A stretch of DNA of 64,000 nucleotides, taken from contig OZ024741.1 in the NCBI GenBank assembly GCA_964016885.1, forward strand, positions 96,100,001 to 96,164,000. Reading direction: 5' to 3'. This document shows positions 2,827 through 52,432 of the stretch, piece by piece (position 1 is the first letter of the stretch; each line of letters begins with the position of its first letter). This DNA is from Eledone cirrhosa (taxonomy: Eukaryota). The position numbers were made by a program, and so were the translations under genes. Under the pieces are notes generated by a model. That model ran no database searches. It had not been told where the DNA came from and saw only the letters and a program-made list of their open reading frames with translations.

Positions 2827-3143
2827 TAAGGAAAAAAGATGAAATCGAAAATGCAACTGGAGTCTTTTTTTTTAAATATATTTATTTGGTTCTTTTACAG
2901 GTTTCACAGTTCTTGTGCTTTTCAAAAGTAGTATTGAGATGGAGGGTTTGTGGTTTTTACCCTTCATCTCAATTCTACTTTTGAACAGCACAAGAACTGC
3001 GAAACCGGTAAAGGAACCAAATAGATGTATTTAAAAAAAAATAGACTCCAGTTTCATTTTCAATTTCATCTTTTTTCCCTATACATTCACTTGTGTAGGA
3101 CAGCTCGTTTTTTTTCATCTTGTAAAAAAACCCTCACTTTCTA
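2827..3143 (+). mobile_element. Small fold-back PLE-like element with HHR-like motif
   Basis: Imperfect inverted repeat 2827-2947 / 2959-3083, then about 60 bp of unique tail; (TA)n on both sides; HHR-like motif at 2978-3013. Confidence 0.65.
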
Positions 3144-3167
3144 ATATATATATATATATATATATAT

Positions 3168-6100
3168 ATTTCATTTCTGAATTTGTTTAGCAAGATTTTT
3201 TATCTGAAATCGTGTGTTGAAACCGATATTGTTATACTTTGGGAGGGTCATGTTGCCAATAAGAAACACACGCACCAGTTGCTTTCACTTCAATTTATTA
3301 TAATAAATTTATAATAAATTTATAAATTTATAAATTTCTGGTTGGCTGGTTGGTTCCACAACCAGGTAGTTGTTTATATATTGTCATAGTTCTTTCGTCA
3401 CACACTCTGTGACCTCTTCAGTGACTGGGGATGCCTTTCTTTGTTTCTGTGCCTCTCCTTTGTTCTGTCCTACGCCATTTTGTTTGTGTGTGTGTTGTGT
3501 GCTCAGTCTGTGCATGCGCCACATCCGAGTGTCTGTGTGTGTTTATGTTCATTTATTTATTTGTTTATTTACATGTTACTGGTTGGTTGTTTGTTCTATG
3601 TGTATGTGTGTTTTCATTTTGTCCTTAATTGTAAGTTGTGATGTTGCTGTTCCACTCATATTTTCTATTTAATTTTGGTTGTAATTCTTTTATGTTTATT
3701 GCCCCTGTGATTTGTCTAAACATTGCGTCTTTTCTGTGTGTAGATTCTATTTTTATTTCTATGTTCTCTAATTTACCCTTGTGTTCTATTTTAGCATGTT
3801 GGTACAGTACAGATGATTCTTTACTATCTTGAAGGTCTCGTCAGTGTTCATTTATCCGTTCCCCTACACTACGAGCTGTCTCACCTATGTACACTATATT
3901 TTTGTCTCTACATTGTCCTTCAGTACATCTTATGCCATACACTACATTTCTAGTTTTACAGTTAATATGGGGGCTTATTTTACAGGTTATACATTTCTTA
4001 TCTATACATGAGGGTCTTTGAAAAGGGTATGTCTTGCTAATAAGTGTTTTTACGGAGGTACCTGGTCTTTCTACTATCTTAATATTGAGTTTATGTTTAT
4101 CTAGGGCCCTTCTAAATTTGTAAGCTAATTCACCTCTAGGGGTTGTATCGATGAACATTACACTCTGGTATTTATTGCTATCGTACCATGAGTTTATTCT
4201 ATTAGCCTTGTTCCTAGTTCTTTCTATTTTATTCCAAAATTTGCTCCTATACAAGGGGCAGGTCCCATTTATGTCATTATTTACCATTTTTTCCCATTTG
4301 GTTCTGGCTCCTCTATACACTCTGATTTTATCTCTCTGATTGTAGCCAGAGAACTGCATACGGTGGATGAAGTGTTGTATGTGTCTCTCTAGTTCTTCGG
4401 GGTTGCACATGCGGGACACGTTTCTCATCACCCGTACCAAATCCGCAATCAGTATGTTGATTTTGGTATGGTCCGAAACGGCCGAGTTTCGGTGGATCAG
4501 ATGTTTGGAAGTCATGGGTTTGGCATAATGGGAATGGAGGATTTGTTTTTTGTTATTAATGGTATCTAACCAGAGCTCTGTGTCTAGTGCAGGTAATCGA
4601 TGGTTGGGGTGTTTACTTGGGTAGTCTATAGTAACTCTAATGCTCTGGTAGATGGAGTTAGCTATTTGCTGGATGCTTTCCATTGTGTTTTTCTCTAGTT
4701 CCTGACTGTTCTCTAGTGGGGGTGTCTTAACTACGATGTTTATATCATCAACGTAGCGGGAGTACATTATCAGGGTTAAGGGGTCTTCTAATTGTTCTTT
4801 AAGATTAAGTTTAAGTCTACTGTCCCACCATACCATGAATAAGTTAGCTATGTCGCCTGCAATGCTAACACCAATGGCTGCTCCTTCCTCTTGGGCATAT
4901 GTTTTTCCATTAAATTTGAACATATGTTCCTTAAGGGTTAGTTTTATGCTGGCCCCTACCGCATGTGCAATCATTTTCTTCAGTTCATTGTGGTTTTCGG
5001 GTGTCCGTATGGCTCTGGTCCACCCGTTCCATCTATCTGTGTGGGTTTTCTTGGCCATTGAGGTAATGGTAGGTGGTCTGCCTCTTGCTGGTCTTTTAGG
5101 GCACAGGTTGCTAAGGTCATATGTGTCTAGGTAATTATTACTATAGGTAAGTTTAGGTAGGAGTCCCAGCTCACTGGTATCAATCCCACGGAACTCAACA
5201 TTGCTCTCACTGATCATTTCTACGCATTTCTCCACAGCAAAATCCACGTCAATAGATGGATACAGGGACACAACATCCATACTACCTATTATGCAGTTTG
5301 TTAGGTCCCTACATCAGTTACTCCCGCCGATACTGCTGAGGAGGTCCTCCGTGCTGTCACATACATCTGGGGACATTTCAATGATGGGGCGTATGATCAG
5401 GGAGAGGAAGTAGGACAGTCTGTAGTTACTAGCAATGTTAGCTCCACAGACTGGCCGTGTTGGTGGTCCCGCGACAGGGTCACTGCCCGTTTTATGGTCT
5501 TTTCGAAGCCCATACAACGCCGGCACGTCATTGTTCCAGGCCTGGAAGTTGTTGGCAGTCCTTTTGTTGGGCTGCATTATATTCGTCCACATCACCATAT
5601 GGGCATTGAGGGCTTTTTCTCTATCCTCATGCTCCTGTGGTGTTACCTCTCTTGTGTTAGTGATGTGGGGTTGCATTGCCTGGATGTAGTTTGGCAGGCT
5701 GTCAACCGACATTCTGCCAGACTTGTCTGTTGGAAAGCATGCTATCTCTCCATTACGTGAGCGCTGCATGAGCTTACGCAAGCCATTTGCAGATTTTTCT
5801 CCCAGTTGCTGGGCCTCCATTCTATTATGCTTCTTGCTATACTGTTCTATAATATTTCTAAGTTCGGATCTAGCTATACTAAATTGTGCTTCTGTTTGTT
5901 CATCGACCTGCGACGGCAATTGCGTGCGTTTGTTAAATGGTAAAGTCGTGGCCTGGACTCGTCGCAGGTCGAACGATTTATCGGAGGGATTATAAAAGTA
6001 GAGTTCCAGGCTGCTGCTTTATGTGTACTAGTGCTATTGTTATTGTTAGTTGTGTTGTTCCTATTTCTATTTCCACCAACAGCCTCATGGTTGTTTCTAT

Positions 6101-6321
6101 GTCTCTCATAATTACTCCTGTCTCTTTCCACTTGCTCATTGTTGTTATCTACCCTATTTTGTGTGTCTGTGTGTTCGTCTTGGTTATTTTCTTTGTCCTT
6201 AGTCTCCCTTCTCCTTTTAATCCTATTACTTTCCCTTATTTCTGTGATTTCTGTGCTATTGTCATTACTTGTTTTCTGTGTCTGTGTGTTTGTTAAGATT
6301 GTGGTGGTGGTGAGAGGCATT
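3168..6321 (-). mobile_element. PLE family B copy 1, long arm (disrupted RT-GIY-YIG)
   Basis: ORF pieces 5874-6320, 5314-5919 (PTDKSG, LYGLRKDHK, TRPVCGA) and 3841-5280 (MDVVSLYP, GAAIG, RYVDD, NVVY..YIGET). Frameshifts, plus a TGG>TGA stop at 3841. 3' end abuts (TA)n. Confidence 0.93.
3383..3425 (-). ncRNA. Minimal type I hammerhead ribozyme in family B 3' region
   Basis: Minus strand reads GUCA-CUGAAGA-G-GUCACA gagug UGUGAC-GAAA-G aa C-UA-UGAC. Confidence 0.75.
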
Positions 6322-51072: not shown

Positions 51073-51610
51073 ATATATATATATATATATATATATATAT
51101 ATATATATATATATATATATGTATGTATTTGTATATATATATATATATATATATATATTTATATATATATATATATATATATATATATATATATATATAT
51201 ATATATATATATATATATATATATATATATATATATTTATATATATACGTATACAAGTATATATATACAGCATATATATATATATATGTATGTATTTGTA
51301 TATATATATGTATATATATGTATGTATTTCTATATATATATATGTATATATATATATATATATATATTTATATATATATATATATATATATATATATATA
51401 TATATATATATATATATATATATATATATATATATATATACACTGTATATATATATATACGTATATACGTATATATATATATATATATATATATATATAT
51501 ATATATATATATATAATATATATATATATATATATATATATATATATATATATATATATATATATATATATATATATATATATATATATATACACGTACA
51601 TACATATATA
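51073..51610. repeat. Long interrupted (TA)n microsatellite
   Basis: Seen directly. Confidence 0.95.
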
Positions 51611-52271
51611 CATGTAATGAAAATGTAACACCTCGTCTATATTATTAGCACAACCACAAAATACAAACTAAACAACATATATATATATATATATATATAT
51701 ATATATATATATATATATATATATATACATACATACATGTGTGTGTGTATGTGTGTGTGCGTGTGTGTGTGTACGTATGTGTGTGTGTGTGAAAGTGAGG
51801 GACAAAATTTCACACAAATACATGTGTACTTACAGATAGAGTGACAGATACGGTGTTAGATCAAAGAAAGAAACAACTTTTTAAGTCAGACATTATACAA
51901 TATACTCAAAGAAATCTCTGCACTAGAGATGCATAACATCATACTGACATCTCTGTGCTTGGGGTGAAATTTGAGGAAAATGACACTCAGCAGATCACAA
52001 CTGAAGTTCATGGTGAGAACCGTCTGACATATTTCATAATATATGTGCACCTACATATGTCTCTTTTGGTCTGTGTGGGTATATATATATATATATATAT
52101 ATATATGTGTGTGTGTGTATGCATGTGTGTGCGTACGTGTGTATATATATATATATATATATATATATATATATGTATACTAAACATATACTCAAAACAT
52201 ATATGTGTGTATATATATACTCAATATATATATATATATATATATATATAGAGAGAGAGAGAGAGAGAGAG

Positions 52272-52432
52272 AAAAATGTTTAACCCCGACAGCAGTGCTC
52301 AAGCCGTCGAAACGGCTTGAACTCTGCCGTTGGGGCTGAACATTTCCCTATTACCCACCACTCTTATACCCTAAGTATTGAGTACTCTGGTGCGTTATGG
52401 TCCATCTGGTTCCTTACCACACTTCCTTCGTT
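52272..52432 (+). mobile_element. Small fold-back element family C, copy 3
   Basis: Hairpin 52273-52345 with a CGAA loop; tail homologous to 20340-20421. Confidence 0.75.

What the first reader, a model, noticed from the sequence alone, without database searches (positions are those of the whole stretch)
2827..52432. Recurrent rule: PLE-type insertions form overlapping inverted arms anchored in (TA)n, with asymmetric 3' ends
Seen: at least 10 insertions from several apparently unrelated families share one architecture (2827-3143, 3168-7217, 20235-20421, 24196-25165, 29620-29813, 37388-37932, 40598-40954, 41537-42555, 45418-51072, 52272-52432). Each has two divergent arms carrying the same sequence and running out into (TA)n or adjacent microsatellite. 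In most, one arm reaches the full 3' end and the other stops early at an internal TAT/ATAT that merges into the microsatellite (e.g. 51072 AACAATAT, 41537 TTTTATAT, 37388 TTTTAT, 2827 CCYTATA, 29813 CCTAT). Known: PLEs often carry inverted partial LTRs, whereas L1 twin priming gives non-overlapping inversions. Inference: both ends of a break in self-complementary (TA)n prime reverse transcription, one terminally and one internally, on two RNAs or on a circular or tandem RNA. That would be a microsatellite-targeted, double-primed integration or break-healing route shared by autonomous and non-autonomous elements.
Basis: partly seen in the sequence, partly recalled or inferred. Interest (0 to 1): 0.85.

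Follow-up and report, generated by a model that had tools for sequence, protein, structure and literature searches.

The report
Head-to-head Penelope insertions in TA repeats
Nine of the ten mirror-image insertions are pieces of Penelope-like jumping genes sitting in TA repeats, a layout already described for these elements; their junctions suggest that the two arms were likely copied separately from the two ends of one DNA break.

Summary
All ten loci have divergent (head-to-head) inverted arms. Nine carry Penelope-like element (PLE) marks; 40598-40954 carries none. Eight are asymmetric. The short arm overlaps the TA flank by 3-5 nt in 5 of 8 (summed overlap 22 against 6.6 expected, P about 3e-5). 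The rule is weaker than stated: two loci are symmetric, four lack a clean TA run on one side, three share one family, and three PLE pieces have no partner. The layout is published: inverted 5'-truncated copy, one-sided tail and (TA)n bias (Craig 2021; Arkhipova 2013), with two reverse-transcription start sites shown in vitro (Frangieh 2024). This scan has noted similar head-to-head PLEs in other genomes. The window adds mechanistic clues. The arms of 3170-7217 come from two different subfamilies, with no TA between them. The unpaired 5' part belongs to the short arm in two loci and to the long arm in one. Tails are 48-115 nt, and most short elements turn in or beside the hammerhead ribozyme. 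This favours two separate primings over fold-back, but does not prove it. No reads or whole genome were examined.

The parts
2825..3143 (.). E1: short PLE-type element. Left arm 2825-2945 (sense on -), right arm 2961-3083 plus 60-nt tail to 3143; U3-A8 hammerhead-like motif
3170..6321 (-). E2 left arm: 5'-truncated RT + GIY-YIG PLE (family F1, same lineage as E9), full 3' end at TA, hammerhead 3387-3421
6322..6345 (.). E2 junction filler without TA; contains a 10-nt inverted copy of the right arm's own short repeat
6341..7217 (+). E2 right arm: 3' 0.9 kb of a different F1 subfamily (groups with the solo copy), full 3' end at TA
7240..7283 (-). Lone copy of the E1-family tail beside the TA run; shows that most of the E1 tail is element sequence
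20235..20419 (.). E3: palindromic head centred on a likely hammerhead stem II, 46-nt arms, 78-nt tail on the right
24195..25165 (.). E4: left arm 24195-24873 (GIY-YIG C-terminus, 3' UTR, hammerhead-like motif; sense on -), right arm 24874-25014, then 151 nt of unverified tail
29622..29826 (.). E5: same family and turn point as E3, tail on the left, 15-nt duplication at the short end
37389..37932 (.). E6: left arm holds a complete type I hammerhead (37462-37594, -) with a 114-nt stem II region; right arm starts inside stem II; 134 nt of unverified tail
40598..40954 (.). E7: symmetric 72-nt terminal inverted repeats around 213 unpaired nt; no hammerhead found by the scans; likely a MITE-type element, not a PLE
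41113..41419 (+). Solo F1 3' end with TA on both sides and no inverted arm (counter-example and outgroup)
41535..42550 (.). E8: left arm 41535-41680, 63-nt filler, then a partial tandem (41744-42005 and 42285-42550) with a type I hammerhead at 42287-42358; 115-nt tail; both inner ends lie in the CUGAUGA core
41681..41743 (+). E8 junction filler, 63 of 63 nt identical to 40362-40424
45420..48934 (-). E9 left arm: F1 RT + GIY-YIG frame (45977-48115), hammerhead 45632-45666, full 3' end at TA
48934..51074 (+). E9 right arm: 2.1-kb copy starting inside the RT, ending 48 nt short at ATAT merged with TA
52272..52431 (.). E10: E3-related family, turn point at the GAAA of the hammerhead, short arm runs into (AG)n then TA, 78-nt tail

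Best explanation
These are head-to-head insertions of Penelope-like elements in (TA)n, and each pair of arms likely arose when the element's enzyme cut both strands of a TA array and each free TA end likely primed its own cDNA. One arm would start at the family's outer start site (with tail). The other would start at the inner site, 22-164 nt behind the predicted hammerhead cut, helped by 3-5 nt of TA pairing. The two unfinished cDNAs would then be joined by end-joining with short microhomology or templated filler. Shown: arms, tails, TA overlap, fillers, and two subfamilies in E2. Inferred: cutting, priming, single-event timing, and stalling at the ribozyme fold.
For: E2 arms come from different subfamilies: 7 of 7 informative sites pair E2-right with the solo copy and none pairs the two arms; the arms are 92.6% alike while E2-left and E9-left are 95.1% alike. 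No TA lies between the E2 arms; the filler copies the right arm. The unpaired 5' part belongs to the short arm in E4 (coding sequence) and E6 (intact hammerhead) but to the long arm in E9, as two independent primers predict. In E3 and E5 the better-folding stem (-12.4 against -8.1 and -7.6 kcal/mol) reads with the short arm. Short-end TA overlap exceeds chance. The E8 junction holds a 63-nt local templated filler. A purified PLE protein cuts and extends both strands, starts at two internal sites and is predicted to be a dimer (PMC11167929).
Against: E2 could be two successive insertions with loss of the TA between them. The tails of E4 and E6 are unverified: a TA run lies that close by chance with probability 0.12-0.16, and tail-to-tail similarity is not significant. 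E9 and E6 arms are over 99% identical, which fold-back explains equally well. E1, E3, E5 and E10 turn on tight hairpins, as self-priming predicts (PMC3846280). In vitro the start site was not homologous to the cut DNA. E3, E4 and E10 have only 0-2 nt of overlap. The sample is nine loci in one window, with no reads.
Confidence: 0.5

Rival explanations
1. Fold-back self-priming: one cDNA stops at a hairpin (often the hammerhead), snaps back and copies itself; the other TA end anneals to an internal TA run of that copy.
For: Turn points at hammerhead stem II (E3, E5), at its GAAA (E10) or at a 4-bp stem (E1); both E8 arms start within 2 nt of each other; near-identical arms in E6 and E9; Arkhipova 2013 reads junction palindromes as self-priming.
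Against: Cannot give E2's two subfamilies. A copy cannot hold a tail its template lacks, so E4 and E6 need host-derived tails or later central deletions. The E9 junction has about 1 nt of overlap across a 1.3-kb loop.
Confidence: 0.28
2. Successive independent insertions into the same TA array, in opposite directions, with the inner TA lost when the second copy's 5' end was joined.
For: Arrays here are hit repeatedly (E1, E2 and the 7240 tail piece; the solo copy and E8). The solo copy shows that 5' ends can join TA directly. Explains E2 and the divergent arms of E4.
Against: Does not explain same-family pairing in 9 of 9 PLE loci, arm identity above 99% in E6 and E9, or aligned inner ends.
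Confidence: 0.1
3. The asymmetry is secondary or inherited: tails were lost later by TA-microhomology deletion, or whole hairpin-plus-tail units (E3, E5) were copied as one non-autonomous family.
For: E3 and E5 share turn point, stem mismatch and short end; microhomology-mediated deletions are reported in PLEs; deletion would give the same TA overlap.
Against: E10 turns at another point; apart from the stem site E3 and E5 share no arm-specific variant; longer TA runs nearer the end were not used in E6 and E8; the tail maps to real start sites in vitro.
Confidence: 0.09
4. Assembly artefact: fold-back chimeras created in sequencing or assembly.
For: Long palindromes next to (TA)n are error-prone (own knowledge); no read check was obtained.
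Against: Arms differ by substitutions in every locus (81-99.6% identity), E2's arms are from different subfamilies, and junctions hold fillers.
Confidence: 0.03

Closest known systems
Canonical endonuclease-bearing PLE insertion structure (Craig et al. 2021, PMC8557442, Fig. 2 legend; Arkhipova et al. 2013, PMC3846280)
   Same: Inverted 5'-truncated copy next to the 5' end, head-to-head layout, tail often at one end only, partial tandems, junction palindromes, (TA)n preference in Naiad, Hydra and Neptune.
   Different: Verified tails here are 48-115 nt, not 30-40; short ends overlap the TA flank by 3-5 nt; one pair has arms from two subfamilies; those papers leave the mechanism open or favour self-priming.
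PAc (Anolis Poseidon) in vitro reaction (Frangieh et al. 2024, PMC11167929)
   Same: AT-rich target, both strands cut and extended, two internal start sites whose spacing gives the tail, start downstream of the hammerhead.
   Different: PAc starts without homology to the target and lacks the zinc-finger linker (Penelope/Poseidon clade); the parts read do not address inverted copies.
PLE minimal hammerheads and non-LTR retrozymes (Cervera and de la Pena 2014, PMC4209133; preprint 10.64898/2026.07.22.740005)
   Same: Type I hammerheads with palindromic loop 3, the U3-A8 variant, and pairs 100-700 bp apart on opposite strands; non-autonomous derivatives.
   Different: E6 and E8 have long stem II regions (114 and 51 nt); no multi-unit tandem arrays here; inversion points fall in or near the ribozyme.
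L1 twin priming (recalled, no paper read)
   Same: Two primers at one break, internal priming by short pairing, inverted 5' part.
   Different: L1 uses one RNA and gives non-overlapping arms with a target-site duplication; here the arms overlap and E2 needs two templates.

Membership tests
EN+ Penelope-like element (E2, E9 family) | Single frame with RT followed by C-terminal GIY-YIG endonuclease | tested here: met
   Pfam RVT_1 and GIY-YIG at E 2e-4 each, both under the curated cut-off; DKSG and YVDD motifs; 254 homologues, best 70% identical and named Octopus vulgaris
EN+ Penelope-like element (E2, E9 family) | Type I hammerhead motif in the terminal repeat | tested here: met
   4 of 5 family 3' ends scored; the solo copy has a changed core; 7 cores in the window against 0 in 8 shuffles
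EN+ Penelope-like element (E2, E9 family) | Direct partial-tandem pseudo-LTR upstream of the frame | tested here: inconclusive
   All copies in the window are 5'-truncated
Neptune/Nematis clades | CX2-5CxxC linker plus CCHH residues in the endonuclease | tested here: met
   C586, C591, C594 and C613 invariant; C618, H656 and H661 at least 90% conserved in 34 sequences; motif definitions
Neptune/Nematis clades | Placement in an RT tree with reference elements | not tested
   No named reference sequences were on hand
Naiad | N-terminal endonuclease, no hammerhead | tested here: not met
   Endonuclease is C-terminal and a hammerhead is present
Hydra clade | No CCHH, DKT motif, CxCX5C linker | tested here: not met
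   CCHH residues present and the motif reads DKS
PLE-derived short elements (E1, E3, E4, E5, E6, E8, E10) | PLE coding remnant or hammerhead | tested here: met
   E6 and E8 full hammerheads; E1 U3-A8 motif in the right arm; E4 GIY-YIG C-terminal piece, tblastn E 1e-4, motif by eye only; E3, E5 and E10 only the 3' half of a hammerhead, by eye, the weakest cases
PLE (E7) | PLE coding remnant or hammerhead | tested here: not met
   No tblastn hit, no scan hit, symmetric ends
MITE / TA-targeting DNA transposon (E7) | Many copies with the same termini and a TA duplication | not testable with these tools
   Single copy in the window; no genome held
Non-LTR retrozyme | At least two tandem units, each with a complete hammerhead (definition) | tested here: not met
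   E8 has one intact unit; the other has a truncated, mutated core
L1-type twin priming | One RNA, non-overlapping arms, target-site duplication (recalled) | tested here: not met
   Arms overlap in 10 of 10 loci; duplications cannot be read inside TA runs

The most novel reading that the evidence does not exclude
The inverted copy of Penelope-like elements, unexplained for decades, is made by two-RNA twin priming: a dimeric enzyme opens a self-complementary (TA)n array, each end primes a separate RNA (even from different subfamilies) at one of two start sites, synthesis stalls at the hammerhead fold, and the two cDNAs are end-joined. TA-targeting families would use TA pairing at the inner start site, unlike the homology-free start seen in vitro.
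Probability: 0.35. Interest if true: 0.62.

Novelty: new member of a known kind. Interest (0 to 1): 0.33.

Why it matters
How PLEs form tandem and inverted insertions and why they favour microsatellites is named as an open question in Craig 2021. A genome this rich in PLE copies of different subfamilies offers a direct test: typing both arms of each insertion separates two-RNA priming from fold-back. The layout itself is known, so the value is as test material and as an annotation warning: these short units look like MITEs or microRNA hairpins (one search matched E1, E5 and E6 to miRNA models below their cut-offs).

Tried and rejected
No whole genome is held, so family-wide counts could not be made. 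The run search listed 21 runs, none holding half of the sampled words, and no RNA holder was listed; no reads were laid, so it gives no evidence either way. Relatives in metagenomes: 80 loci kept of 103; 19 of 80 had an inverted match of at least 30 nt, mostly internal palindromes; L004 has a 61-nt inverted terminal copy at its contig start; L001 and L011 run into TA behind the frame; none of those inspected shows a complete two-arm insertion. Viral contigs: none. Rfam: no hammerhead family among the 150 of 250 matches listed. My first hammerhead scan missed E6; the relaxed scans found E6 and E1-right but still not E4 or E1-left. An automatic junction caller crashed, so overlaps were read by hand. 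The idea that E8's left arm was copied from the distal tandem unit was dropped: identities are 137/140 and 141/146, and the shared base is the ancestral GAAA. Tail-to-tail homology between families was not significant in 20 of 21 pairs; only E3-E10 passed. Literature searches listed no paper whose title or abstract start proposes two-RNA priming for PLE inversions; the subscription papers Evgen'ev and Arkhipova 2005 and Arkhipova 2006 were not read and may hold such a model. No supplementary files were examined.
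Full report
Setting. The window is 36% GC and holds 68 merged runs of at least (TA)6. The best named homologue of its main PLE protein is from Octopus vulgaris at 70% identity, so the host is probably an octopod (inference). No whole genome is held and no reads were laid, so all counts are for this window.

Observation. All ten loci have divergent inverted arms. Identities run from 26/32 (E10) to 2124/2133 (E9). Six have a perfect TA run at both ends; E4, E5, E7 and E10 have one clean side. Eight are asymmetric; E2 and E7 are not. The extension is confirmed as element sequence by another copy in six: 60 nt in E1 (partly), 78 in E3 and E10, about 78 in E5, 115 in E8 and 48 in E9. The 151 nt of E4 and 134 nt of E6 are unconfirmed. 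Read by hand from the alignments, the short ends overlap alternating TA by 4, 2, 1, 3, 3, 5, 4 and 0 nt (E1, E3, E4, E5, E6, E8, E9, E10). The sum is 22 against 6.6 for random ends (P 3e-5); with one locus per family and the weakest chosen it is 17 against 5.4 (P 5e-4). The loci fall into seven families: E2 and E9 share one, and E3, E5 and E10 share another.

What they are. E2 and E9 encode RT followed by GIY-YIG (both under the Pfam cut-offs), with a CX4CxxC linker and CCHH residues conserved in 34 aligned sequences. That fits the Neptune or Nematis type as defined in Craig 2021; no tree was built. A scan found 7 type I hammerhead cores against 0 in 8 shuffles: four in this family, one each in E6 and E8, and one at 63539-63583. 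E1 has a U3-A8 variant. E4 holds the end of a GIY-YIG frame. E3, E5 and E10 keep what reads by eye as the 3' half of a hammerhead. E7 has none of these marks and is more simply a MITE-type element (inference). Five PLE-type pieces have no inverted partner: 588-2260, 7240-7283, 39031-40008, 41113-41419 and the 63.5-kb motif. The first and last could have partners beyond the window. So 9 of 14 PLE-type loci are inverted, 3 are not, and 2 are undecided.

What is known. [quoted passage not shown] Arkhipova 2013 (PMC3846280; passages and Discussion) reports head-to-head as the commonest layout, with junction palindromes read as self-priming. Frangieh 2024 (PMC11167929; parts 1-2 of 4) shows a PLE protein cutting and extending both strands of AT-rich DNA and starting at two internal sites that bound the tail, without homology to the target. 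Cervera 2014 (PMC4209133; passages) notes hammerhead pairs 100-700 bp apart on opposite strands and the U3-A8 core. I also saw part 1 of 5 of the retrozyme preprint and passages of an octopus repeat annotation (PMC13282606), which counts young PLEs; the passages seen do not describe this layout. Earlier notes of this scan report head-to-head PLEs and TA-anchored PLE-type repeats in other genomes; I did not check their data.

Evidence on mechanism, for two primers. In E2 the right arm groups with the solo copy at 7 of 7 informative sites and with its own partner at none. The arms are 92.6% alike, less than E2-left and E9-left (2991/3146). Their junction has no TA and contains a 10-nt inverted copy of the right arm's own repeat. 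Fold-back cannot produce this. The unpaired 5' part belongs to the short arm in E4 and E6 but to the long arm in E9; fold-back from the tailed arm predicts the long arm always. In E3 and E5 the central stem folds better in the short-arm direction, which is weak support. E8's arms are joined by 63 nt identical to 40362-40424, as expected of end-joining with a templated filler.

Evidence against, or neutral. E2 may be two successive insertions. The E4 and E6 argument holds only if their extensions are element sequence; a TA run lies that close by chance in 12-16% of positions, and cross-family tail similarity is not significant. E6 and E9 arms are nearly identical. E1, E3, E5 and E10 turn on tight hairpins, and E8's inner ends lie within 2 nt of each other in the hammerhead core; self-priming explains these well. 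E3 and E5 share turn point and short end, so they may be one inherited unit. The short end is not simply the best TA run, since longer runs nearer the 3' end were passed over in E6 and E8. It lies 61-77 nt behind the predicted ribozyme cut in E1, E4, E6 and E8, 22 nt in E5 and 164 nt in E9, which suits a family-defined start site. Later deletion between an internal TAT and the flank would give the same overlap.

Relatives. Of 80 metagenome loci, L004 has an inverted terminal copy at the contig start and L001 and L011 run into TA; none inspected spans a whole two-arm insertion. This shows TA ends in distant relatives but cannot test the rule.

Verdict. The feature is real and is the known PLE insertion layout, in a TA-rich genome where it is common. 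My searches listed no paper stating two-RNA priming for PLE inversions, but two key subscription reviews were not read and no supplements were examined. Interest 0.33.

Noticed in passing
window 41681-41743 and 40362-40424: The E8 junction filler is a perfect 63-nt copy of a stretch 1.3 kb away that reads like the 3' end of an RTE-type LINE (label recalled; translation).
   Followed up: partly
window 54621-54950 and 28557-28676: Inverted repeats centred on a TA array rather than flanked by one: 119 of 119 nt around 54740-54831 and 32 nt around 28590-28644. They look like fold-back copying primed within (TA)n, with no PLE involved.
   Followed up: partly
window 37455-37600 (-): E6 hammerhead has a 7-bp stem I, palindromic loop 3 and an unusually long stem II region of 114 nt (fold z -5.0).
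   Followed up: partly
window 63494-63590 (-): Unlisted well-formed type I hammerhead (8-bp stem I) ending 45 nt from a (TA)26 run, with no inverted partner inside the window; the AT-rich DNA beyond gave no clear frame under the mitochondrial code.
   Followed up: partly
window 29805-29834: The E5 short end carries a 15-nt tandem duplication spanning the element end and TA, suggesting a restart of priming or slippage.
   Followed up: no
window 27714-28229, 28320-28560, 29867-30381: A roughly 500-nt non-inverted repeat family that begins at TA runs in two of three copies; no hammerhead found.
   Followed up: no
window 10123-10311 and about ten other places: A 190-nt dispersed SINE-like family, 80-92% alike.
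   Followed up: no
window 56916-57002; 42843-43051 and 53617-53824: An 87-nt palindrome without TA flanks, and a two-copy 210-nt element with an internal hairpin.
   Followed up: no
window 25212-25255 and 27322-27365: A 44-nt exact duplicate, each copy followed by a TA run, 2.1 kb apart.
   Followed up: no
L004:1-61 and 3126-3186: A 35%-identical relative shows an inverted copy of its hammerhead-like terminal repeat at the contig start.
   Followed up: partly
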